Assembly: GCF_009914755.1 (NCBI RefSeq)
Contig: NC_060932.1
DNA: 64,000 nucleotides
Reading direction: 5' to 3' (one strand)
Origin: the human T2T-CHM13v2.0 reference genome, Homo sapiens
The translations under genes were made by a program, and so were the position numbers. Numbering within the stretch: position 1 is the stretch's first letter; every line of letters begins with the position of its first letter. Under the pieces are notes generated by a model. That model ran no database searches. It had not been told where the DNA came from and saw nothing but the letters and a program-made list of their open reading frames with translations. Below are positions 2,374 to 60,498 of this stretch, in pieces.

Positions 2374-4339
2374 CCCTCTACTTATTTTCCCATTCTTCTC
2401 TGACCAACAGATGGGCTTACTTCCCCTTTATGTGTTTTCATTGTTAATATCTGCAATTCAATAATCAGAAAAATCAGAAATTAGCTTGTATCACATTTGC
2501 AAGGGAAAATGTTTTCTTCAAGCTGCATTTTGTTTCTGAGCTAAAAGAAAACACAATGCTATTACATAATGAGTGCCTGTTTTACAGGGGAAAAAATAAA
2601 CAGGGTTCCAAGTTTAAAATGATGATGGTGCTTTTCTGCTATCATCGGAGCCTAGGTCAGCACAAGGCCACATGTCATCCCTCTCTTGGACTGCAGTCTT
2701 TATGCACATCATTCACACACAGATTAATTCACTCAACCAGAGAGATGGTCCAATTGCACTTTCTTACTTAATTTCTTGTTGACTTGTCAGATACTTATGT
2801 TTTATGAAGACATGACAGAATTCCAAGATTAAAATTTGGTTATGATAATTTATAAAATAATAAGTATTGTGATGTGATATTGATGGCTTCATGTAAAAAA
2901 GAATCCTTTTTATTCAGTTCCCAATCCAAGAATCCTCCCAATCTAGAGGGGTACCTCTCTTGTCCGGAGCACCATTGATTAAATCTCACCAAGCCAAATC
3001 TTTATCTTTTTGTAATAAGTGTGTCCTCTGTAGGTATTCTCCAATGCTCCATAAGCTATTCTTGGCTTGGTACTTTTCTGATGAGAATGAACTCTTTCTT
3101 CATGGTCTAGCTGTGAAGCTGATTGAATGTCTTAGGCCAGAAGATTTGACCAGGGGCTGCCGTGTTTTCTCATCTTTGCTCTTTTATCAACATAGGATTT
3201 CCTGCAGATTCAAGATGAGGAGTCAGATGAGTCAAAGTTATCTACATCTACAGGTCATGACAGGAAAGTTGAAAGCCCTGTTAAATTTTTACAGGAGTTA
3301 CTGATGATAATTACCAAGAAATCCTGGGCCTGAGATATAAATTCTTAGCTTTAAATTTTCTTCATTTCTTGGTTCTGCTGCTCCTCATCACCATTTATGC
3401 AAAAAAAATCTGCTTGGGTATTCAAAACACAGCTTTCTTGTTTCTATTTGTGCATTCAAACACTCCTTATTTTCTCCACTACCAGGGATAACCTCTTTTC
3501 TTATGATTCACATTTTTCTTGTTCTTCAATTGTCATCCAGAATTTTCTTGCTCCTTAAAAGCTTCCTAGTTTAACTGATTCAATATCTATAATTTTCTTT
3601 CTCAGGTAGATTTTTATACATGAACTTACTCATGCTACAATTTCACTGGGAGCTTTATATTTTTATGTCACCAACAAATCTCTTCCAGCTTCATCAGATT
3701 GTAAAACCTCAAGGGTCCTGATCATATCCTCCATTTTCGTCTAGGGTGTTTAGTGGAGTAGGGTCCCTCGTTTTTTTCTCTTTCTTTGCTGCACTAAAAG
3801 GATGAAATGTAAATATTTTCTCCCCAGGGAGGCTTTGGGAAGAGAGTGAGTTTTCAGTGGCTAATGATTTGTGCTTTGAGTTTAATGGTCCATCAAAGTC
3901 TATTAAGCAATAGCAAGAGAAAAAGAAGATTCCAAAGGAAAGTAGAAGGGGATAAACCACAATGAGACTTCAGGGGGGATCTAGAAAAATGGACCAGGGA
4001 ATGATCTGGTTTACAGAAGGGGAGTTTGGGAGATAAGGCGCAGGTGGGAGGGCAGAGATCTAACTGCGGAAAAGCTCAGACACAGCCGAAAAACTGGACC
4101 TAGTAATGTTAGAAGACACCAGAGTTGAATCACAGCTCGCAGCCACCCCTCACTCAAGCCTTCACTGGAGCTGGCATCTCTCCTCTCCTGTGTTTAGTGA
4201 CAAAAAATGTGGCCCTTCTGCTGCCTGGCAAAGAGTTTGCCTTGACTACATTCAGCACCTCATCAGCTGTCCTTCCATCTGTGCCTGCCACCTAGGTGAG
4301 CCACTGGCCTCCTCCTGTATGAGTCAGGATTCTGGCATA

Positions 4340-10705: not shown

Positions 10706-13213
10706 AGCTGTAGAGCATGATTTTTCTTCATTTACAAGTCTTCATGTCTGCCACGTATAAGATGTTATACTAGGAGTTGGGGGATGTAAGCATGGATATA
10801 TAAGAGGAATAAAAGTGATAGACTACCTCCAGAGAGCTTGCAGTTAAGGAGGAGAGAGAAAACCTTTATAAAATTAACTATATAGTGTATTGCAGAACCT
10901 GCGATCTTATTTCCTACCTTCATGGAGATTTTAGCCCAGTAAGAGTGAATGACAATTAAACATGAACTCATAAAACCATGCACCAAGTGCTTTGATTGGG
11001 GAAATGTACACTGAAAGGATATCAAAAACAGGAGTAAAAGGACATGAGAGCCAGAGAAAAATAATCTTGAGACCTAGTCACAGCAGCTCTCCACCCACAG
11101 CTATTCACCTAACACTTTAAGCTTCAATTTACTCATAGGTAAAAAGAGAGGGTGGGAGTCCGTGACCTCAAGGCTCTTTAGCAATTCTCAGTGTCTAATC
11201 TATTTTGCTGTTCTGTATGTTTACAAAGGCAAGGTTTAAAGAATTGGAGCAGCCAAGAGAAGAATTAGCAAGCAATCTGCTTCAACATTGGTTTTGGTTC
11301 CTATTTATTTTATTATCAAACTTATACTAAAACAACTTTAGTAATTGTTTGAAACAAAGGATCATTACTCAGGAAGCAGCATCTCAGCTGTGTTATGATT
11401 AAAAGACTTTGAAAAGCTCAGGAAGTATAGTTTTCTCCAGCATTGTTTTTCTTTTCTACAAAAACCTTTTTGTGCAGGTTCAAGTGCAAGATTAGATACT
11501 AATTTGATTCTTTATAGTATAGACAGTCTTTAACACAGCACTGAGATATGGGCTTATCTAGAGAGACTGTTTTTGAAAGAAATGCTGCTATTCAAAGCAA
11601 TAGGCCAGCTTTGTTTTTCTAAATTATTCAGAACAGAAATAACTGGTTGATTTGCTGATATGCAGATAAATATCAGGTATTATTTAGCCAGCGCCAACTT
11701 GCCTGAATGACTATCTTTCCACTACCCTGGGAGTAGTGAACCTAAAAAAAAAAAAAGGAAACTTTGTTTCCTACAGAGTAAATATTAGATGTTAGATCAT
11801 ACCCCTAGGACAGAAGAAAATTAGATAAGCTCTATTTTCTTGCACAAGAAGAAATGCACCCTCTTCAAATACTGATGGAAAGTCCTGTCTGGGTGGACCT
11901 GTCATTTTGAAAGTGGAGGTACTAAAAATGAAATAAATTACTACTTGGTTACAACTATAAGCAAGAACAATTCTCTAGTCATTTCCCAACTAGAAATAAT
12001 GAAATCACAAATAACTTAGGAGAAGATGTAAAATTCAACTTTCCTTTCAAGTCCTGCTGCCTCTCTGCTTTTATCTCCACCTGGCCTTCTAAATTCTCTG
12101 GCTTTTCATTTGTACTTTGAAAACCTTTTCACTGAATTCACTATTTAAATTAAATAAAAATTCCAAGCAGCTATATCTGGTTTGGTTTTGGAATATCCTT
12201 TCCTCTGAGCTCCTTTTGGTTTTCTAATTTTAAGGTAAGTGTCCTCCCTGTCTTCAGCTTCCCAAATAGTTGACCCCTCGAACTATGTTTTCTCCTTTGA
12301 TGCTAATGCTACCAGTTTCTCTACTGCCCTCCACTGAACCACTCCTGTTGCCTTTCATTCTTTCTACACTTTTATCTACTTTGTTCCTATTACTGCCAAT
12401 GTAAAAATGAGACATGCCTCCCCCCTCACTTAATAATTCTATTCTCAAGTACATAATTATTTCTGTCTTTCCTTTATGGTGATCCACCTAGAGCAACCCT
12501 AGCTAATGCTGGCTAAGAAAACGTTCTCTTTTGAGTGTTATGCTAGAGATCATAGAAACGTGTCCATGTTAGCCCCTGTAGGAAGGACAAACTATCTCTG
12601 GAGGTTGTTGCTCAAAGAGCAGATTTTAGCTTTCACACATAACCTCACCACCCTGTTTGCCCTATTTTCCTCTATATGAAGAGCAAGCCCTTCCTACCTG
12701 TGACAAGGGCAGATGCTACTTTTGCCCATCAGCTTATCCTTGCTGTGTGTTTCTGTCAGCACTGCCAAGTTCTGGGCACCAAGTGGACGGAGCCCGCGGC
12801 ATCTGCCACAGAGCTATAAGAACCCAGGCAGCAATATGTCCTTGTGGAGTGGAAAGACAAATCCAGGAGAGCAGGATAGATTCCATACCAACCCCAACCA
12901 CCACCAGTGCCCTTCTCAACTTCCTATTACATTGAGAAACAGAACAGAAGCACAGGATGGAATATTTTCAATCACAGAGCTTTGTTGGAAGGAAGATTCC
13001 AGGTGGTAAGGGGAGATTTGAGCACCAAATAGACACAGGGTTAACCTTGCAGGTGGTCAGAGCAGGTGTACACCCACATGGTAAAATCTTAGAGGTCTTA
13101 TAAATATTCCTAAGTCTAAAAGAAACATATAGAAAATGTTTAAAATACCCCTGACAGAGATCCAACCCTTTGCAGGTCTTCTGCTACCTGATAAAATGCA
13201 AAGTCCTCCATGT

Positions 13214-13291
13214 AGAAATATATTTGAAATGTATTCATCGGTATCACCTTGGTGCTAAAGAATTTACAGTTAGCTCCCCTAGTGAAATTCA
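13214..13291 (+). repeat. Inverted repeat pair A, donor copy (78 bp)
   Basis: Reverse complement of 13743-13821; 62 bp identical, then one substitution and one 1-bp indel. Confidence 0.97.
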
Positions 13292-13742: not shown

Positions 13743-14243
<501 letters not shown>

Positions 14244-47439: not shown

Positions 47440-49785
47440 TGTCTCCACTGTAAACTCTATAATTCTCTGTATATCTCTTGCCAGGCCTCCCTCTCCCATC
47501 CTGCCTCAATTCTGTGCTTTTTTGGAAGGCATAATCTGCCTTTAACAAAATCTACTCCATCATTAACTTTCCTTGATCTTTCTCTTCAAAATTTCGCTCC
47601 AACAGGAGCCTTGAGGATACTCCTTCCCCACTGTCATCTCTTGAGGTGGTTGTTGCTGTTGTTTTCCTTGAAAACCTTTGTACCTTAAGATTGTAAGGAT
47701 GTTCTCCTTGCTCCTCACTGCTGCTTCCAAATCATGTTTCCCTTCCTCTTGAAATCCTCTCAGCTCTAAATTCCCTGCTATCAGACTTTATAAATTTTTT
47801 TTAATGTCACCACCAAAAGAGAACTTCTCCAGATGCCCACAATCACAGTTTCACCTATAGGCCCATCTTTTGCTTTAAGTGAACTAATCCTGCTCCAACC
47901 TAAAGCTGATCGATCATTCCTGTTGCAGTAAAGTGCTAAGTCTCTTCCCTTACTGCCTTTACAGGGAGCTCCAGTAAACTTCCTTCTCTCTGTCCTACTC
48001 CTACATCTTTCTTTTTTCTCTCTTTCTATTTAGCCAAACAAACATGCTCTCATTTATTTCATCTCAAACACAAGACAAAATACAAATCTTTTTATTCCAT
48101 TTTTTTTTTTTTTGCTGGATACTGCCCTATTTCTCTGTCCATTTAGAGTCAAAACTCCTCTAACAAGTTGTCAATTCTCGTCTTTTCTCCCAATATCTCT
48201 TTCTCTCTCACACACACAGAGAGAAGCATACATACATCCAATTCTGTTTTATCCCTGCTTCTGCATTATAAAATACAATAAAGAATGAATTTCATTCTTA
48301 ACAATGACATTTGACACAATTTCTCACTCCTTCTCTTTTGAAAAGCTCTCTGTACTTGCCCTTGAGGACAACACATTCTCCTGCAGTCCTTCCTGCCTCA
48401 GTGACTTCTCCTTCCTAGGCTGCTCTGTCAGTTCTTTCTCTGCCCTTCAGTTTCTTCATGTTGCACAAATGAGCCTTCTTGCCCTTCTCTTTTTGATTCC
48501 CATCCACTTCCTTGGTAATCTCATTCAGGCTTATGACTTTAATGCCTTTTATATGTCAAGGACTTCCAAGTTTATATCCACAACCTATGTTTTTCTCCTG
48601 AACTCCAGAAACATCCAATTGGATCCAGATATCCAATCCTACTCAACGTTTCCACTTGTATGTCTAGCAGAAATTGCAATCATAACAGTCTCCAAATTGA
48701 CATTTTTTTTTCCTTCCAGGAATTTTATTTTTAATTTTTTTTATTTCCCTAGGTTATTGAGGAACAGGTGGTGTTTGGTTACATGAGTAAGTTCTTTAGT
48801 GGTGATTTGTGAGATTTTGGTGCACCCATCATCCAAGCAGTATACACTGCACCAAATTTGTAGTCTTTCATCCCTCACCCCTTTCTCATCCTTTCCCCCT
48901 GTGTCCCCAAAGTCCATTGTGCATTACTTCTTAATAATCTACCTCCCTACACACTGTACATGCTCTACCCACAGTACTCGCTCCATCTTTGTTTACAGAA
49001 CCTCCATACTTTCAGTTACTTAGGCCCCAAATCTTGGAATAATCTTTTATGCCTCTTGGTATGTCAGAGTTCACTTCTATTAGCCCAAAATACCAGGATC
49101 CAAATACTTCTTACCACTTCCAATACTAAGGTATCAATATTTGTTATTTGAATTATTATAAGGCTCCTAAAGTATCTAGTTCTATCACTGCCCCTTTTTG
49201 GGTGACTATCTGAATATCAGCTATAAAGACTTTTTAAAACATGAATCAGATCATGTCTTCCAATGTTCAAAATCTTCCAGTGGCTTCCTATTTGACTCAC
49301 AATGAAAAACAAAATTTTACCTGAATCCTGGTCCTTTTCTGACTTTATCTCATACAACTCTCCCTGCTTGCTTCCTATACTTTAGTCATGCTGGTCTTCT
49401 GTTCCTCAAACGTGGCTTAGGATTTTTTCACTATCTATTCCTTTATCTTGAACTCTCTTCTTCCAGATATCAATTGTGAGATCCCCTAATGTCCTTCCGG
49501 TAAGACTTCTTCTCTCAGAACCTTATCTAAAATTGCAGCCCAGCTCAAACCCTACCAGCACTCTCAGTCCTGCTTTCTCTGCTATTTGCTTTCTGTTACA
49601 GAACTTATTGTCTGCTAATATAAAATTATGTATTGTTTTCCTCCCTTTACTGGCTTGTTAGCTCCATGAAGGCATGAACTTTCATATTTTATTCTTTGCT
49701 AATGTTTTCCAAGTGCCTAGACAAGAGCCTGGTACAAGGAAGGTGCTTGGATTTATTAAATTATTATTTAATAATTTACTGAATG
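47440..49785 (+). mobile_element. Long L2 remnant
   Basis: Endonuclease-region remnant (gaggatactccttcccc...ggtggttg), atcagatcatgtc...cttccagtggcttcc, 3' end agctccatgaaggca...gcctggtacaaggaaggtgct. Confidence 0.85.
48722..48922 (-). mobile_element. L1PB 3' end fragment
   Basis: gaacaggtggtgtttggttacatgagtaagttctttagtggtgatttgtgagattttggtgcacccatc. Confidence 0.9.
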
Positions 49786-49798
49786 AAAATTATTAAAA

Positions 49799-50007
49799 GG
49801 ATACAATTATAGAATATGAAAATAATCAGTTTAAAATAAGAAATAGAAGATGGCATTAAAATATGACAAAGAAAAACTCGATTGACAAAATTGACAAGAC
49901 ATTTGAAAATGAAACCTAAGAGACACTCAGAAAAAAATCCCAAATATTGTAGTAAAAACTAATTGGATATACTAATCTAGAATTTAGAAAGAGATGAAAA
50001 GAGAAAA
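49799..50007 (+). repeat. Inverted repeat pair B, donor copy (209 bp)
   Basis: Reverse complement of 52201-52412; one substitution and two small indels. Confidence 0.98.
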
Positions 50008-50508
50008 TTGGGCAGGAAGCAGAGGTGAGAAAATTACTTAAGTGGCATCAAAAATGACAAGGAAGGAGGAACTATGTGAGAGAGCTCAGGTGATGCAGAA
50101 GCTGGAGGAATACGTCTGGGATAGGCCTCATGGAAATTCCAGAAGAAGATACAGCATAAAGAAGGAGAGCAGAGATACATGATGAGAATTTTCAGCACTG
50201 ATGTAGATATTAGCCCTAATATATAGAAAGCTCAGTGGATTCTAAGCTGAATAAATAAAAAGGGATTCAAACCTAGCCACATCAGAGTGACACTTAAGAA
50301 TGACAAGAATAAAAAATTTAAATAGATACAGAAGAAAAATGTAGATTTGCTTAAAGGTAATGATAACTAGACTAAGAGGAGACTAATCAATATTTAATAT
50401 GAATAAAATAGCAGTGAATAGAATTCTATACCCAGTAAAACTATCTTTTGAGAATAAGGGCATAATAAAGGAACTTTCAGACATGTAATAATTGAGATAG
50501 TTGACTAC

Positions 50509-50964
50509 TGTATTATTTTCCTGGGGCTGCTGTAATGAAGTACCACAGACCAGGTGGCTTAAAACAACAAAAACTCATTGTCTCAGGGTTTTGGAGGATA
50601 GAATTCAAAATTCAAGGTGTTCACAGGGCTATGCTCTATCTGAAACCTGGAGGGGAGAACCTAGGGAGAACCTTGCCTCTTCCTTGCTCCTGATGGTTTG
50701 CCAGCAGTCTTTCCCATTTCTTGGCTTGTAGCTGCATAATGTGCATCTGTATCTCCATCAACACATGGTATCTCCCCGTGTGTGTGTGTGTGTGTCTGTG
50801 TGTGTGTGTGTGTGTCGTGTCTCCTCTTCTTATGAGGAACCAGTCATATTGGATTAAGGACTTATCTGACTACATTATGGCCTTATATTAACTAATTACA
50901 TCTGAGATAATACTGGTTACATCTTTCACATATCTTTTTGTGAGATACAATTCCAACCATAACA
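50509..50964 (-). mobile_element. MLT1B/C solo LTR containing a (TG)n tract at about 50778-50815
   Basis: TG...CA termini, 5-bp TSD actac (50504-50508, 50965-50969). Confidence 0.92.
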
Positions 50965-51430
50965 ACTACTAAACTTCTTCTAAATGATATAAGAAAATAA
51001 GGATAGAATATCTAAGATGCAGGAAGAATTGAGGGGTAAGAAAGAAGCACTGAGTATATACAAAAGAACAACAATATGTAACCGAAATCATAGACATTAT
51101 TGGCATATGAGTCAGGAGAGAAATAATCAGATTTTAAGTACTAGTATTGAAAATCCTAGTATCATTTGAAAGAAGAGAAACTATATTAATAACATTAGAT
51201 ATTGTTGAGGTAAATGTGCATGTAGAAAGTTTGAAGATGGCCATATAAAAATACAAACCAAATATGTAGCTTCCAATTTAGTAGAGAGGAAGGAAATAGC
51301 ATTAGAAGAAAAATAAATGAACAAACCAACAAACTCAATCCAAATAATTAAGAAAGAAGAGAATAAATATAAAGAAAATGAGAAAAAGTAATTAAAAAGA
51401 AATGCTAATTAGAAGACAGAAATGTGTCCA

Positions 51431-51737
51431 GGCCAGGCACAGTGGCTCGCACTTGTAATCCCAGCACTTTGAGAATCCCGTGGCAGGTGGATTTCTTGAG
51501 CCCAGGAGGTCAAGACCAGCCTGGGCAATATAGTGAAACCCTGTCTCTACGAAGAAAAAAAAAAAAAGGCTTGTCTGTCCTATAGTCCCAGCTACTCAGG
51601 AGGCTGAGGTGAAAGGATCACCTGAGTCCAGAAGGTTGAGGCTACAGTGAGCCAGGATAATGCCACTGCACTCTAACCTGGGTGATGGAGTGAGAAGCTA
51701 TCCGCCCCCCCAAAAAAAGAAAGAAAAAGAAAAAAAA
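51431..51737 (+). mobile_element. AluJ
   Basis: cttgagcccaggag, gaggctacagtgagc (J-type); TSD agaaatgtgtcca at 51418-51430 and 51738-51750. Confidence 0.93.
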
Positions 51738-52147
51738 AGAAATGTGTCCAAATGTGTCAATAATGATGTGTGATGGTTAAAACTGAGTGCCAAATTGATT
51801 GGATTGCAGGATGCAAAGTATTGATCCTGGGTGTGTCTGTGAGGGTGTTGCCAAAGGAGATTAACATTTGAATCAGTGGGCTGGGAAAGGCTGACCCACC
51901 CTTAATCTGGGTGGGCACCATCTGATCAGCTGCCAGCATGGATAGAATATAAAGCAGGCAGAAAAATGTGAAAAGACCAGACTGGCCTAGCCTCCCAGCC
52001 TATATCTCTCTCATGCTGGATGCTTCCTCCCCTTAACATCGGACTGCAAGTTCTTCAGTTTGGGGACTTAGACTGCCTCTCCATGCTCCTCAGTTTCCAG
52101 ATGGCCTATTCTGGGACCTTGTATTATGTAAGTTAATACTTAATAAA

Positions 52148-52150
<3 letters not shown>

Positions 52151-52194
<44 letters not shown>
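52151..52194. repeat. (AT)22 microsatellite, resuming as (AT)7 at 52413-52426
   Basis: Direct reading. Confidence 0.97.
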
Positions 52195-52197
<3 letters not shown>

Positions 52198-52200
52198 CTC

Positions 52201-52412
52201 TTTTCTCTTTTCATCTCTTTCTAAATTCCAGATTAGTATATCCAATTAGTTTTTACTACAATATTTGGGATTTTTTTCTGAGTGTCTCTTAGGTTTCATT
52301 TTCAAATGTCTTGTCAATTTTGTCAATCGAGTTTTTCTTTGTCATATTTTAATGCCATCTTTATTTCTTAAATATTTTAAACTGATTATTTTCATATTCT
52401 ATAATTGTATCC
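52201..52412 (-). repeat. Inverted repeat pair B, inserted copy
   Basis: ttttctcttttcatctctttctaaatt...tattctataattgtatcc is the reverse complement of 49799-50007. Confidence 0.98.
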
Positions 52413-52549
52413 ATATATATATATATGAGTTCTGTCCCTCTAGAGAACCCTAACCAATACTGATTTTCATACCAGGACTGGCTCTAGAGGAACAGAATAT
52501 TAAGAATGGTGTTCTTTCATTGGCTTGGGGGTTTCTGGAGTTGGCTGCT

Positions 52550-54260
52550 TAATATGATTAAACCCAAAAATGCTAAGGACTCTACTTCTAATAATATAGA
52601 GAACACTGATAGTCCTTGGCATGAACTGTTCAGAGAGTTATGAAAAATAAATGCATTTGACGATCCTGATACGCCACTTGTGAGAGGCAAGAAAGTTTAG
52701 TGACTCTATACATAATACATTTGACCATATGCGGAGAACCAAGAAACACAATGAAGCTGGTTGGTTGCTCCTAAGTTCAGCGGACAAATTGATGAAAGAA
52801 AATTATGAACTCAGGGATTCTATTTTTCAGCTTCAGAAGCAAATACTGAGCCTCAAATCTGCTAGGACTGCCCTGAGTAAGAGTCCTATCTCCTGTAGAG
52901 AAAGAGCTGAAGTTGTGGAAAGACAGGCACAAGCTCCTATTATGTGAGTGGCTGACCTGGAACACAAAGTGCATGCACGGCCTTGTCAGGTGTCTACTGT
53001 TAAAATGAGGCCATTGATTGGAAAAGAATGAAAACCTGGATTTTGGAATAGGGACATATGGGAGGACCCTGATGAGGCTGGGGACACTGAGTTTGTAAAT
53101 GCTGATCAAACTTTTTTTGCCAGAAGAAACAGCTGCCCCATCCCCAGTAGTGGCTACATCCCCTCCCCAACACATGCTGCCATCAGCATTTCCACCTTTG
53201 TCTGAGGAGATAAACTCTGTGCTACCTGAAGCAACAGTGATGACCTCCCCTGAGGCATTTGCCAGGCAAGATAATGTTGATTCTCTGCAAGAACAACCCC
53301 CAACACCCCTATTTGCTTCTAAACTTATAACTAAAGTCCCAGCAGGAACCTAGAGGTGAGGTTGAGTGTGACCCATGAGGACATGTGCTACACTTGAAAA
53401 GTACTGCTTGAGTTTTGTAATTTATATATACAGAAATATGGAGAACAGGTATGGGAATGGATTTTAAGGGTGTGGGATAATGGTGGAAGAAACATAGTGT
53501 TGGATCAGGCTGAATTTATTGATTTGAGCCCACTAAGTAGGGACTCTGCATTTAATGCTGCAGCTTGGGGAGTTAAAAAAAAGTTTCTAACAGTTTATTT
53601 GCTTGGTTGGCTGAAATATGGATTGAAAGATGGCCCGCTGTGAGTAAGCTAGAAATGCCTGGTCTTTCTCAGTTTAATGGAGAGGAAGGGATCCAAAGGC
53701 TTAGGGAGATTGAGATGCTGTAGTGGATTAGTCACTTTAGACTTACTCATTCCCACAGGAAGGGTTCAGAAGATATACCCTTGACCAATGCCTTGTGAAA
53801 TAGATTTGTGAGGGCAGGACCTGCATCTTTGAAGAGCCTTGTAATCACTCTTCTCTGTATGACAGATCGAACAGTGGGAATTACAGTCACTCAACTACAA
53901 AATTTAAATATAATGGGAATATATAGATCCCAAGGTGGCAGGGGCCAAGTGGAGGTACTCAACGGTCAAAGGCAAGATGGGTATAGCAACTTTAATGGAC
54001 AGCAGAGACAAAGCAGCAATCAGAATAGTCTGACTCATGTAGAGCTCTGGCATTGGCTAATTAATCATGGTGTTCCTAGAAGTGAAATTGATAGGGAGAC
54101 TACTGCATTCCTACTTAATTTATATAAGCAGAAAACTTCTAGGTTGAATGGACAAAAGACTAATTCAAATTATAAAAACAGAGAATCACAGCCCTTCAAT
54201 TAATTTCCAGAGTTGAGCCATTTTACAGACCCAGAACCCCTTGAATGAAGGGCAGGCCAG
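52550..54260 (+). pseudogene. gag: HERV-L gag, disrupted
   Basis: ORF fragments 52729-52947, 53099-53353 and 53808-54203 (LTHVELWHWLINHGVPRSEID) separated by stops and frameshifts. Confidence 0.85.
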
Positions 54261-54329
54261 TCCCATTGAGGAAGGACCCCACTACACTACCGACCATTTA
54301 TGCTATTAATCTTTCTCCCACCCTTCCCC

Positions 54330-57300
54330 AAGCAGACCTCTGGCCTTTTACCAGGGTAACTGTGCACTAGGGAAATGGAAATTATCAGTCATTTCAGGGA
54401 CTACTGGACACCGGCTCTGAGTTGATGTTAATTCTAGGGGACCCAAAATGTCATCGTGGTTTTCCTGTTAAAATAGAGGCTTATGGGGAGTTTTAGCTCA
54501 GGTCTGACATACACGTATTCCAGTGGCTCCCAGACTCATCCTGTAGTCATTTCCCCAGTGCCAGAATGCATAATTGGCATAGACATACTTAACAGCTGGC
54601 ACAGCCCCCATGCTGGCTCCCTGACTGGTAGGCTGAGGACTATGATGGTGGGAAAGGCTGAACAGAAGGCAGTAGAGCTGTCTCTACCTAGGAAAATAGT
54701 AAATCAAAACCAATATCACATCCCTGGAGGGATTGTGGAGATTAGTGATACCATCAAGGACTTGAAAGACACAGGGGTGGTGATTGCCACCACATCCCCT
54801 TTCAACTCTCCCATTTGGCCTGTGCAAAAGACAGATGGATCTTGGAGAATGACAGTGGATTATTAGAAGCTTAACCAAGTGGTGACTCCAATTGCAGCTG
54901 CTGTACCAGATGTGGTTTCATTGCTTGAGCAAATTAACACATCTCCTGGCACCTAGTATGCAGCCATGGACTTGGCAAATGCCTTTTTCTCCCTTCCTGT
55001 CCATAAGGCCCACGAGAAGCAATTTGCCTTCAGCAGGCAAGGCCAGCAATATGCCTTTACTGTCCTACCTCAGGGGTATATCAACTCTCTAGCTTTATGT
55101 CATAATCTTATTTGGAGAGACCTGGATGGCTTTTCACTTTTGCAAGATATCACACTTGTCCATTACATTGATGACATTTTGCTGATTGGATTCAGTGAGC
55201 AGGAAGTAGCAAACACACTGGACTTACTGGTGAGACATTTGAGTGCCAGAGGATGGGAAATAAATCCAACTAAAATTCAAGGACCTTCTACCTCAGTAAA
55301 ATTTCTAGGGGTCCAATGGTGTGGTGCCTGTTGAAACATTCCTTCTAACGTGAAGGATAAGTTGTTGCATTTGGCCCCTCCTACAACCAAGAAAGAGCCA
55401 TGACGTCTAGTGGGCCTATTTACATTTTGGATGCAACACATTTCCCATTTGGGTGTGTTACTCCAGTCCACTTATCAAGTGACTCAAAAGACTGCCAGTT
55501 TTGAGTGGGGTCCAGAACAGGAGAAGGCTCTGCAACAGGTCCAGGCTGCCGTGCAAGCTGGTCTGCCACTTGGGCCACATAAACTAGCAGATCCAATGGT
55601 ACTTGAGGTGTCAGTGGCAGACAGGAATGCTGACTGGAGCCTTTGGTAGGCCCCCATAGGTGAATCACGGTGGAGGTCTCTAGGATATTGGAGCAAGGTC
55701 ATGCCATCTTCTGAAGATAACTACTCTCTTTTTGAGAGATAGCTCTTGGCCTGTCACTGGGCTTTGGTGGAAACTGAATTTTGACTATGAGTCATCAAGT
55801 CACCATGTGACCTGAACTGCCTATCATGAAGTGGGTGCTTTCTGACCCATCTAGCCATAAAGTGGGTCATGCATAGCAGCATTCCATCATCAAATGGAAG
55901 TGGTATATTTGTGATTGGGCTTGAGCAGGTCCTGAAGGCACAAGTTACATGAGGAAGTGGCTCAAATGCCCATGGTTGCTACTCTTGCTGCCCTGCCTTC
56001 TCTCCCCCAGCCTGCACCAATGGCCTTATGGAATGTTCCCTATGATCAGTTGACAAAGGAAGAGAAGACTCTGGCCTGGTTCACAGATGGTTCTGCATGA
56101 TATGCAGGCACCACCTGAAAGTGGACAGCTGCAGCACCACAGCCCCTTTCTAGGACATCCCTTAAGGACAGTGGTGAAAGGAAATCTTCCCAGTGGACAG
56201 AACTTTAAGCTGTCCACCTGGTTGTGCACTTTGCATGGAAGGAGAAATGACCATATGTGTGACTATATACTGATTCATGGGCTGTAGCCAGTGGTTTGGC
56301 TGGATGGTCAGGGACTTGGAAGAAGCATGATTGGAAAATTGGTGACAAAGAAATTTGGGGAAGAGGTATGTGGATGGACCTCTCTGAGTGGTCCAAAACT
56401 GTGAAGGTACTTGTATCCCATGTGAGTGCTTGCCAGTGGGTAACCTCAGCAGAGGAGGATTTTAATAATCAAGTGGATAGGATGACCTGTTCTGTGGACA
56501 CCACTCAGCCTCTTTCCCCAGTCTCCCTTGTCATTGCCCAATGTACCCATGAACAAAGTGGCCGTAGTGGCAAGGATGGTGGTTACACATGGTCTCAGCA
56601 ACATGGAATTCCACTCACCAAGGCTGATCTGGGTATGGCCACGGCTGAGTGCCCAATTTGCCAGCAGCAAAGACCAACACTGAGCCCTCGATATGGCACC
56701 ATTCCTTGGGGTGATCAGCCAGCTCTCTGGTGGCAGATTGATTATATTGGACCTCTTCTGTAATGGAAAGGGTAGAGGTTTGTCCTCACTGGAATAGACA
56801 CTAACTCTGGATATGGATTTGCCTGTTCTGCATGCAATACTTCTGCCAAGACTACCATCCGTGGACTCACTGAATGCATTATCCATCATCATTGTATTCC
56901 ACACAGCATTGCCTCTGACCAAGGCACTCACTTTACTGCTAAAGAAGTGTGGCAGTGGGCTCATGCTCATGGAATTTACTGGTCTTACCATGTTCCCCAT
57001 CATTCTGAAGTAGTTAGATTGATAGAATGGTGGACAGGCCAGTTGAAATCACAATTGCAATGCCAACTAGGCAACAATACTGTGGAGGGCTGGGGCAAAG
57101 TTCTTCAGAAGGCCATGTATGCTCTGGATCAGCATCCAATATATGGTACTGTTTCTCCCATAGCTAGGATTCACGGGTCCAGGAATCAAGGGGTGGAAGT
57201 GGAAGTGGCACCACTCACCATCACTTCTCGTGATCCACAAGAAAAATTTTTGCTTCCTGTTCCTGCGACATTACGTTCTGCTGTCCTAGGGGTCTTAGTT

Positions 57301-57601
57301 GCAGAGGGAGGAACACTGCCACCAGGAGACACAACAACAATCCCTTTAAACTGGAAGTTAAGATTGCCACCTGGACACTTTTGGCTCCTTCTACCTTTAA
57401 ATCAGCAGGCTGAGAAGGGAGTTACAATGTTGGCTGGGGTGACTGACTCGGACTATCAAGATGAAATCCATCTACTACTCCACAACGGAGGTAAGAAAAA
57501 GCATGCATGGAATATGGAAGATCCATTAGGGTATCTCTTAGTCTCTTAGTATTACCATGCCCTATTATTAAGGTCAATGGCAAACTACAACAGCCCAATC
57601 C
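54330..57601 (+). pseudogene. pol: HERV-L pro-pol-dUTPase, disrupted
   Basis: Protease LLDTGS at 54401-54418; [28 protein letters not shown]; integrase CPIC and WQIDYIGPL; dUTPase GVTDSDYQDEI; many stops. Confidence 0.95.
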
Positions 57602-59890: not shown

Positions 59891-60498
59891 ATAGGAGGAG
59901 ATAGGATAATTTATTTATGTCTTTTTCCTCATCTATATATAAAAAATGTTATATATAATATATAATGTTATAATTAAACACATATATAATGTTACATATT
60001 ATATATAATGCTATAATCAAACATATATGTTTAATTATATAAACATGTAACATTATAATTAAACATATAAATGTTTAATTATATAAATATATAATGCTAA
60101 TGTAACAATATAATATTAAATGTCATAATTAAACATACATATGTTTATAACATTAATTTTAAATATTCTGTCTAGAAAGGATATTAATAATTACTATATA
60201 TAATTATTATATATTACATATAAGTATTAATACAATAATTATGTTAATTTATTAATATTCTAATTTATGTCCTATAGAGAGAGAGAGAGAGAGGGGAGAG
60301 GAGGATCTAGGATAATTTATTTATATAATAAAATATATATTATATAAGTAATATATATTAGATATTATATATAATATATATTATATAAAATATATAATAT
60401 ATGAATATATATATATAATCCTACATCCCCTATATATGTAAGTATATGTTATGTATATATATGAGATATATACTTACGTATATATAGGAGATGTAGGA
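59891..60498. repeat. AT-rich expansion with duplicated and inverted flanking motifs and a short (GA)n
   Basis: taggataatttattta occurs twice; imperfect inverted repeat 60419-60447 versus 60468-60498. Confidence 0.9.

What the first reader, a model, noticed from the sequence alone, without database searches (positions are those of the whole stretch)
49799..52431. 209-bp inverted copy of upstream DNA pasted into the (TA)n tract of the HERV-L LTR
Seen: 52201-52412 is the reverse complement of 49799-50007, 2.2 kb upstream, with one substitution, one 1-bp and one 4-bp indel. That is far closer than two independent old L1 copies could be. It splits the LTR's TA tract into (AT)22 and (AT)7, is preceded by a 7-nt stutter (ttttctc, 52194-52200), and has no poly(A) or TSD. 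The outer flanks aactc(at)n and (at)ngagtt are themselves reverse complements. Established: long (TA)n tracts extrude cruciforms, break, and can be repaired with templated insertions. Inference: a germline break at the TA cruciform was patched from the opposite strand. The resulting inverted pair could mediate inversion of the 2.2-kb interval, and the insertion remodels the R/U5 part of the LTR just after its AATAAA (52142-52147).
Basis: partly seen in the sequence, partly recalled or inferred. Interest (0 to 1): 0.8.

Follow-up and report, generated by a model that had tools for sequence, protein, structure and literature searches.

The report
Inverted local DNA patch in TA repeat
A 209-base stretch lying 2.2 kb upstream was copied backwards into a long TA repeat inside an old retroviral LTR, a clean but ordinary scar of DNA repair or replication at a fragile repeat.

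Summary
Window 52201-52412 is the reverse complement of 49799-50007, with 1 substitution, a 4-bp indel and a 1-bp indel. It sits between (AT)22 and (AT)7 and follows a 7-nt TTTTCTC stutter.

A whole-genome search found no other donor. The next best match is 67 nt at 81%.

The upstream copy lies colinearly inside an old interspersed repeat. The downstream copy interrupts an LTR that is continuous in 26 of 29 other copies, with a median of 31 nt of native TA-rich core where this one has 276 nt. So the direction is upstream to TA tract.

There is no poly(A) and no nearby polyadenylation signal. Junction microhomology is 2 nt on the left and 0 nt on the right.

My best reading is one DNA-templated event at a broken or stalled TA tract. 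A 3' end primed on the same strand 2.2 kb back, copied about 209 nt with one slip, and was rejoined. Cruciform cleavage as the cause is plausible but not shown, and fork template switching fits equally.

The LTR is the 5' LTR of a degenerate ERV-L-type provirus.

This is a new member of a known kind, and interest is low to moderate.

The parts
49799..50007 (+). Donor segment (209 nt), part of an old interspersed repeat (probably L1 ORF1 region)
   Evidence: pairing with 52201-52412; locus L010 aligns colinearly across both donor boundaries (window 49773-50488, 58.6%, E 2.7e-20); weak L1 ORF1 C-terminal domain match at 50390-50506 (E 0.0066, below Pfam cut-off).
50008..51768 (.). Spacer, first part: rest of the old repeat, another repeat with (GT)21 at 50778-50820, and an Alu-like SINE about 51431-51737 with direct repeats AGAAATGTGTCC at 51418-51429 and 51738-51749
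   Evidence: (D2). The Alu and other repeat names are by eye or recall, not from a call.
51769..52150 (+). 5' LTR of an ERV-L-type provirus, up to AATAAACTC (AATAAA at 52142-52147)
   Evidence: 39 other scored copies at 88-90% identity (3943 first-look candidates); homology of 29 copies starts at about 51768/51769.
52151..52194 (.). (AT)22, left part of the split TA microsatellite
   Evidence: 22.0 copies, 100% matches; the only pure TA tract of >=8 units in the 64-kb window.
52194..52200 (+). 7-nt stutter TTTTCTC, a repeat of the first 7 nt of the insert. A52193 and T52194 can be assigned to either the tract or the donor (2-nt microhomology).
   Evidence: (period 7, 3.9 copies, 52194-52222).
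52201..52412 (-). Inverted copy of 49799-50007 (212 nt)
52413..52426 (.). (AT)7, right part of the split TA microsatellite. 0-nt microhomology at this junction.
52427..52460 (+). Last about 34 nt of the LTR (U5 end)
   Evidence: right flank found in 26 of 29 other copies; homology of solo or other copies ends at 52449-52463.
52461..57558 (+). Degenerate proviral interior: RT 54822-55316, RT-RNaseH 55506-55772, RNase H 56065-56481, integrase 56716-57003, dUTPase 57253-57558. Many stops and frame changes. No 3' LTR in the window.
   Evidence: L037 and L043 align on to 53381/53400 at about 85%. Pfam E 2.3e-22 to 7.8e-7, stops read as X; no second LTR copy.

Best explanation
This is a single DNA-templated insertion at a broken TA microsatellite.

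The native TA-rich core of the LTR had expanded to a long (TA)n. This self-complementary tract is hard to replicate and prone to hairpin or cruciform formation, and it broke (inferred).

After resection, the 3' end of the left (+ strand) end, ending in ...ATAT, folded back. It paired through 2 nt (AT) with its own strand, or the sister's equivalent strand, at 50007/50008, 2.2 kb upstream.

A polymerase then copied that strand from 50007 down to 49799, which writes the reverse complement after the TA tract. Early on it slipped once on the internal TTTTC repeat of the template, giving the extra TTTTCTC.

The new strand was unwound and joined without microhomology to the other TA-ending break end, and the gap was filled. 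The mirror-image version, with priming from the right end and the slip at the end of synthesis, fits equally.

Shown here: copy identity, direction, uniqueness of the donor, junction sequences, and absence of retrotransposition marks. Inferred: the break, the fold-back geometry, the polymerase and the joining pathway.

The event is not brand new but is young. At 1 substitution in 209 nt the point estimate is about 2-5 Myr, with a 95% range of about 0.06-27 Myr (assumed rates 0.5-1e-9 per site per year are recalled).
For: (1) Near-identity in inverted orientation at 2.2 kb.

(2) In the 3.1-Gb assembly the copy matches only itself, the upstream segment (97%) and one 67-nt stretch at 81% (3 of 3 scored). 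The donor gives the same picture (13 matches, of which only the copy covers the donor part; 2 of 2).

(3) The donor is in native context, since L010 is colinear across both boundaries. The acceptor is an interruption: 26 of 29 other LTR copies have the right flank 0-218 nt after AATAAACTC, median 31, against 276 here.

(4) The insert landed in the only pure TA tract of >=8 units in 64 kb. The 58 nt of tract are about 0.1% of the window.

(5) Junctions have 2-nt and 0-nt microhomology, plus a 7-nt stutter explained by a slip on TTTTC in the template. There is no poly(A).

(6) Print, from passages read with 'find':
- TA repeats form cruciforms, are cut by ERCC1-ERCC4 or MUS81, and are repaired by Pol-theta MMEJ with templated short duplications (PMC13645644).
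- Fold-back priming at one DSB end, followed by unwinding and NHEJ capture with 0-5 bp microhomology, gives inverted templated insertions in yeast (PMC11724301).
Against: - Nothing in one haplotype shows that a two-ended break occurred.
- The insert is off-centre in the tract (22 vs 7 units), whereas cruciform cleavage predicts a central break. Later tract length change could hide this.
- A fold-back loop of 2.2 kb and a 209-nt copy are far larger than the yeast events (mostly 5-34 bp, 41-nt loop) and than great-ape short-range template switches (median 12, max 128 nt).
- 2 nt of AT microhomology in AT-rich DNA is what chance gives.
- The stutter could be a later slippage duplication.
- None of the 29 other LTR copies examined, and none of the 4 other split TA tracts fetched, shows an inverted neighbouring copy. 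There is therefore no sign here of a recurrent TA-tract process.
Confidence: 0.5

Rival explanations
1. Replicative template switch without a two-ended break (FoSTeS / MMBIR type). A nascent strand stalled in the TA hairpin, left its template, primed by microhomology on the opposite-strand template 2.2 kb behind, copied about 209 nt, and switched back into the TA tract.
For: The same sequence facts as the best explanation apply: local donor, inverted orientation, minimal microhomology and stutter. Template-switch events in great apes create inverted repeats and are enriched in AT-rich DNA (PMC7954356). Local two-jumps are attributed to stalled forks that switch templates (PMC7025897).
Against: The return switch shows 0-nt microhomology, which fits ligation better than re-priming. 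The region 2.2 kb behind a fork would normally already be replicated. The event is larger and more distant than those catalogued (max 128 nt), although that study searched only the near neighbourhood.
Confidence: 0.35
2. RNA-mediated patch. A transcript covering 49799-50007 was reverse-transcribed (L1 ORF2p, endonuclease-independent or internally primed) into a nick or break in the TA tract, i.e. a class 1 or class 2 templated sequence insertion polymorphism.
For: Class 2 TSIPs have no TSD and no poly(A) and show NHEJ-like junctions (PMC5110952). The sense 3' end of the insert is purine and A-rich (GAAAAGAGAAAAGAGAAAA).
Against: TSIP donors are described as distant and seemingly random, so a donor 2.2 kb away on the same chromosome would be a roughly 1-in-a-million coincidence for a diffusing RNA (inference). 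There is no poly(A), only 4 T after the tract, and no AATAAA within 30 nt of the donor's sense 3' end.
Confidence: 0.05
3. Not one insertion event. Either two independent old repeat fragments were homogenised by gene conversion, or this is an assembly or cell-line artefact of CHM13.
For: Inverted repeats can undergo gene conversion. TA tracts are hard to assemble. CHM13 is a cultured line.
Against: Homology ends exactly at the TA tract on both sides. An independent fragment would need the same 209-nt extent. Other relatives are 58-81% identical. Three differences between the copies argue against a fresh culture event or a mis-join of identical reads. One outgroup (L003, 67% identical) carries the copy's extra TATT, hinting that the donor lost it later (weak, single outgroup).
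Confidence: 0.05
4. Terminal inverted repeats of a DNA transposon or foldback element spanning 49799-52412.
For: There are 209-nt inverted arms around a 2.2-kb interior.
Against: Only this one pair exists in the genome. The interior is a patchwork of unrelated older repeats. The arms are a piece of an older repeat that continues past the arm.
Confidence: 0.01

Closest known systems
Fold-back inverted templated insertions at double-strand breaks (yeast Break-Ins study, PMC11724301; abstract and passages read)
   Same: An inverted copy of DNA from the same side of the break. One end is extended by synthesis on its own strand, then unwound and captured by the other end with 0-5 bp microhomology. 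The donor is retained.
   Different: Those events are mostly 5-34 bp with a 41-nt loop and a 10-nt imperfect inverted microhomology. Here the copy is about 209 nt, the distance 2.2 kb, and the microhomology only 2 nt. This one is in a human germline sequence with no genetics behind it.
Short-range template-switch mutations in great apes (PMC7954356; passages read)
   Same: A reverse-complement copy of nearby sequence that creates an inverted repeat. The context is AT-rich, and the event is fixed in the hominid germline.
   Different: Catalogued events have a median length of 12 nt and a maximum of 128 nt, and lie within tens to hundreds of nt. This one is longer and farther away, and is a pure insertion into a microsatellite.
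TA-repeat fragility repaired by Pol-theta MMEJ (PMC13645644; passages read)
   Same: A long TA repeat is the site of the lesion. In the paper's passages, small duplications were enriched in the TA-fragile regions and were attributed to templated insertion.
   Different: That work was done on ecDNA in cancer cells under FANCM loss or Pol-theta inhibition. No germline case and no inverted 200-nt copies appear in the passages I read.
Class 2 templated sequence insertion polymorphisms (PMC5110952; abstract and passages read)
   Same: An insertion of copied genomic sequence without TSD or poly(A), with end-joining-like junctions.
   Different: Those donors are distant and thought to be RNA-derived. 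Here the donor is 2.2 kb away in cis and inverted, which points to a DNA template. Polymorphism is not known for this locus.
Palindromic AT-rich repeats (PATRR) that break as cruciforms (recalled; cited only through the reference list seen)
   Same: An AT-rich perfect palindrome, AACTC(AT)nGAGTT, as the site of rearrangement.
   Different: PATRRs are hundreds of bp long, break at the centre and give translocations (recalled). This tract is tens of bp, the insert is off-centre, and the outcome is a local patch.

Membership tests
Local DNA-templated insertion (fold-back / template switch; MMBIR, FoSTeS or TMEJ-type scar) | Inserted DNA is a copy of sequence that is still present at its source | tested here: met
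   both copies are present, 97.2% over 213 columns.
Local DNA-templated insertion (fold-back / template switch; MMBIR, FoSTeS or TMEJ-type scar) | Source lies nearby in cis and is the best match in the genome | tested here: met
   The source is 2.2 kb upstream; the next best match is 67 nt at 81%. Searches agree.
Local DNA-templated insertion (fold-back / template switch; MMBIR, FoSTeS or TMEJ-type scar) | Short microhomology at the priming junction | tested here: inconclusive
   2 nt (AT) at the left junction and 0 nt at the right. In AT-rich DNA, 2 nt is expected by chance, and the tract may have changed since the event.
Local DNA-templated insertion (fold-back / template switch; MMBIR, FoSTeS or TMEJ-type scar) | Signs of discontinuous synthesis (stutter, re-priming) | tested here: inconclusive
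   the extra TTTTCTC fits a slip on the template's TTTTC repeat, but a later slippage duplication gives the same sequence.
L1-mediated retrotransposition / class 1 TSIP | Poly(A) tail at the sense 3' end, 10-30 nt after a polyadenylation signal | tested here: not met
   only 4 A at the sense 3' end (apart from the stutter), and no AATAAA in the last 30 nt of the donor.
L1-mediated retrotransposition / class 1 TSIP | Target-site duplication of 5 bp or more | tested here: inconclusive
   Both flanks are TA repeat, so a duplication cannot be told from the repeat.
PATRR-type cruciform breakage | Long, near-perfect AT-rich palindrome able to extrude a cruciform | tested here: inconclusive
   AACTC(AT)n...(AT)nGAGTT is palindromic. 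(AT)22 folds on itself as single-stranded DNA: the whole 298-nt stretch has MFE -17.4 kcal/mol, z -2.53, and 3 of 200 shuffles fold as well. The length is far below PATRRs as I recall them.
PATRR-type cruciform breakage | Break at the centre of the palindrome | tested here: not met
   The insert splits the tract 22: 7 units. Later expansion or contraction could mask a central break.
PATRR-type cruciform breakage | Cruciform extrusion and cleavage in vivo | not testable with these tools
   This needs footprinting or break mapping in germ cells.
DNA transposon with terminal inverted repeats | Several genomic copies with the same termini and flanking target-site duplications | tested here: not met
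   only this pair is found in the assembly.
ERV-L (HERV-L / MLT2-type) LTR as host of the insert | High-copy LTR followed in some copies by a pol with dUTPase after integrase | tested here: met
3943 first-look candidates, with 39 other scored copies at 88-90%; 2 of 29 copies align on into the interior. RT, RNase H, integrase and dUTPase.

The most novel reading that the evidence does not exclude
The insert is a human-lineage, perhaps still polymorphic, germline scar of long-range (2.2-kb loop) fold-back repair at a broken TA repeat. It would be the germline counterpart of the Pol-theta-dependent repair of TA-repeat breaks recently shown in cancer cells. It would also be one of a recurrent, uncatalogued class of 100-300-nt inverted local patches at expanded TA tracts, including the TA cores of ERV-L LTRs. 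Its 209-nt inverted arms would now make the 2.2-kb interval between them invertible.
Probability: 0.15. Interest if true: 0.5.

Novelty: new member of a known kind. Interest (0 to 1): 0.3.

Why it matters
The locus is a very clean natural example. Both junctions, the donor and the target repeat are all readable. It shows a fragile TA microsatellite being patched with an inverted copy of nearby DNA in the human germline.

Such scars create new inverted repeats that can seed further instability, and they show which repair routes act in germ cells.

It has no evident functional consequence. It lies in an intron of a lncRNA and in the LTR of a dead provirus.

On its own it adds an instance, not a principle. 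It would matter more if a genome-wide or pangenome scan showed that expanded TA tracts collect such patches often.

Tried and rejected

(2) Naming the donor repeat:
- The genome search returned no relatives for the donor part beyond one 67-nt hit.
- Pfam on three read-through frames gave only a sub-threshold L1 ORF1 C-terminal match at 50390-50506.
- 'Old L1' therefore stays weakly supported.

(3) Polarising the three differences:
- Only two outgroups were available (L003 at 67%, L010 at 59%).
- L003 shares the copy's TATT, and nothing else is informative.

(4) Survey of other LTR copies:
- 29 copies were examined.
- 11 of them have enlarged or open-ended tracts. Of these, 0 show an inverted neighbouring copy and 1 (L039) shows a direct partial duplication of the LTR end.
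- The search was limited to 1.5-kb flanks, with the low-complexity filter on.

(5) Genome-wide pattern (AT)10-N{200,230}-(AT)6:
- It gave 1202 + 963 matches, against 993 + 1190 for the tool's mirrored control, which is not a meaningful control for this near-palindromic pattern.
- Only the first 100 or so matches, all on contig 1, were listed. By my reading these are about 24 distinct places, mostly compound microsatellites.
0 of 4 have an inverted copy of DNA within 3 kb.
- This sample is too small and too unrepresentative to say anything about frequency.

(6) Transposon-TIR, twin-priming and gene-conversion readings were rejected for the reasons given under rival explanations.

(7) Literature: six word searches turned up mechanism papers. 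I made no search that could find this locus by coordinates, so I make no claim that it is undescribed in structural-variant catalogues. No supplementary tables were opened.
Full report
**1. The observation**

- The repeat finder reports two inverted arm pairs: 49847-50007 / 52201-52361 (161 nt, 99%) and 49794-49838 / 52373-52417 (45 nt, 96%).
- A gapped alignment joins them. 49799-50007 equals the reverse complement of 52201-52412 apart from three differences. These are one substitution (donor A49973), four extra bases in the copy (52371-52374) and one extra base in the donor (49846).
- BLAST gives 97.18% over 213 columns, E 2e-97.
- The copy lies between (AT)22 (52151-52194) and (AT)7 (52413-52426).
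- It is preceded by TTTTCTC (52194-52200), which repeats its first seven bases.
- AATAAA is at 52142-52147. The outer flanks AACTC and GAGTT are reverse complements.
- In a self-comparison of the whole 64-kb window, only two pairs reach 90% identity over 50 nt or more, out of 32 non-self HSPs. This is one of them.

**2. Which copy is the source, and is there another source?**

A search of the whole 3.1-Gb assembly with the TA-tract copy gave three matches: itself, the upstream segment (97%), and 67 nt at 81% on another chromosome. Searches with the upstream region gave the same picture. In one search, of 13 matches only the TA-tract copy covers the donor part. In one search there were 2 matches of 2 scored. 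The tool skips very common words, but a 97% donor would share the words that found these hits.

The upstream copy is in native context. One diverged relative (L010) aligns colinearly from 49773 to 50488, across both ends of the donor (58.6%, E 2.7e-20).

The repeat is probably an old L1 ORF1 region. The only direct support is a sub-threshold Pfam match to the L1 ORF1 C-terminal domain at 50390-50506 (E 0.0066, 16.9 bits against a cut-off of 22.2).

The downstream copy is an interruption.
- The host LTR has thousands of relatives (3943 first-look candidates; 39 other scored copies at 88-90%).
- In 26 of the 29 copies fetched, the LTR continues 0-218 nt after AATAAACTC. The median is 31 nt, typically a short TA-rich core.
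- In the other 3 copies no right flank lies within 1.5 kb.
- Here the gap is 276 nt.

**3. The host element**

Homology of the other copies runs from about 51769 to about 52460. Two of the 29 (L037, L043) align on for a further kilobase at about 85%.

Downstream, read-through translations match reverse transcriptase (E 2.3e-22), RNase H, integrase and dUTPase. These lie on the + strand, in shifting frames with many stops. No second LTR copy is in the window.

The tract is therefore in the 5' LTR of a degenerate, 3'-truncated ERV-L-type provirus. It lies between the polyadenylation signal and the last about 34 nt of the LTR.

**4. Junctions**

At the left junction, ATTTTCTC (52193-52200) matches the reverse complement of 50001-50008. 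A52193 and T52194 can thus belong to either the tract or the donor, a 2-nt microhomology.

The extra TTTTCTC is what a single backward slip on the TTTTC repeat inside TTTTCTCTTTTC would give.

At the right junction the donor would continue TTTTAATA where the window has ATATATAT, so microhomology is 0 nt.

There is no poly(A) and no polyadenylation signal near the donor's sense 3' end. A target-site duplication cannot be judged inside a repeat.

**5. Mechanism**

Several facts together point to a DNA template copied locally. The donor is 2.2 kb away in cis, the orientation is inverted, and the donor is retained. Microhomology is minimal, there is a stutter, and retrotransposition marks are absent.

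The target is the only pure TA tract of 8 or more units in the window. A random landing there would have odds of about 58 in 64,000. The tract itself was therefore very probably the lesion site (inference).

Print supports each element.
- TA repeats adopt cruciforms, are cleaved by structure-specific nucleases and are repaired by Pol-theta MMEJ with templated duplications (PMC13645644, passages).
- One break end can fold back, be extended on its own strand, be unwound and be captured by the other end with 0-5 bp microhomology (PMC11724301, abstract and passages).
- Template switches that write inverted copies are common in great-ape genomes and enriched in AT-rich DNA (PMC7954356, passages).

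I put break plus fold-back (or sister) priming plus end joining at 0.5. The blunt return junction looks like ligation. I put fork template switching without a two-ended break at 0.35. Sequence from one haplotype cannot separate these two.

Against a classical cruciform break, the insert is off-centre (22 vs 7 units). The fold prediction shows only the expected TA hairpin (MFE -17.4 kcal/mol for 298 nt, z -2.53).

The event is much larger than the catalogued fold-back and template-switch events.

**6. Age**

One substitution in 209 nt gives about 2.4-4.8 Myr, with a 95% range of 0.06-27 Myr. The rates used, 0.5-1e-9 per site per year, are recalled.

The single usable outgroup (L003, 67% identical) shares the copy's TATT. 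This hints that the donor lost it after the event, so time has passed (weak).

Error-prone synthesis or gene conversion between the arms would bias the estimate either way. Orthologues and population haplotypes are needed, and none are available here.

**7. How unusual is it?**

- Among the 29 other LTR copies, 11 have enlarged or open-ended tracts. These are minisatellites, other inserted repeats, and one direct partial duplication. None holds an inverted neighbouring copy within 1.5 kb.
- A crude pattern scan for split TA tracts listed only places on one chromosome. 0 of the 4 fetched shows such a copy. That sample is too small to carry weight.
- On the other hand, the same 64-kb window holds a second local inverted pair: 13206-13291 vs 13743-13829, 86-87 nt, with 3 mismatches and 1 indel. 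It abuts a truncated Alu-like element with a CTCC/GGAG overlap. Small inverted local patches as such are therefore probably common scars.

**8. Comparison and verdict**

It works like a fold-back or template-switch templated insertion at a fragile TA repeat. On the features I could test it qualifies as a local DNA-templated insertion. It fails the tests for L1-mediated insertion (no poly(A) or signal) and for a TIR transposon (no other copies).

It resembles PATRR breakage only loosely, being short and off-centre.

The kind is well described, and the instance is a tidy mid-sized germline example. I made no search able to find this locus in structural-variant catalogues, so I do not claim it is undescribed.

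The verdict is a new member of a known kind, with interest 0.3.

Noticed in passing
window 13206-13291 and 13743-13829: A second high-identity local inverted pair: 86-87 nt, 3 mismatches plus a 1-bp indel, arms 451 nt apart. The right arm abuts an antisense Alu-like element that lacks its T-rich end. The junction overlaps CTCC/GGAG. It looks like another inverted templated patch, older than the one studied.
   Followed up: partly
window 51769-57558: The LTR is the 5' LTR of a degenerate ERV-L-type provirus. RT, RNase H, integrase and dUTPase domains lie on the + strand in shifting frames with many stops. No 3' LTR copy is in the window.
   Followed up: partly
window 51418-51749: An Alu-like SINE (about 51431-51737, interrupted A-rich tail) is flanked by direct repeats AGAAATGTGTCC at 51418-51429 and 51738-51749. 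It lies just upstream of the LTR. The family name is by eye.
   Followed up: no
window 60320-60418: AT-rich overlapping palindromes (54 and 41 nt arms, 74-78% complementary) in a TA-rich low-complexity stretch.
   Followed up: no
L039 (G000:C4:163135454-163138840), about 1841-2065 in locus coordinates: In another copy of the same LTR family, the end of the LTR is partly duplicated in direct orientation next to its microsatellite, here (TATC)n: 81 nt at 85%.
   Followed up: no
L079 (G000:C1:79782000-79788300), 3053-3159: Between two TA tracts lies a 107-nt self-complementary palindrome (96% arms), followed by unique DNA and an A-run. Its nature is unknown.
   Followed up: no
L021, L028, L032 (other LTR copies): In 3 of 29 LTR copies the LTR does not resume within 1.5 kb after the TA core. 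Two are followed by unrelated, repeat-like DNA and one by a long TA-rich minisatellite. The TA core appears to be a frequent site of change in this family.
   Followed up: partly
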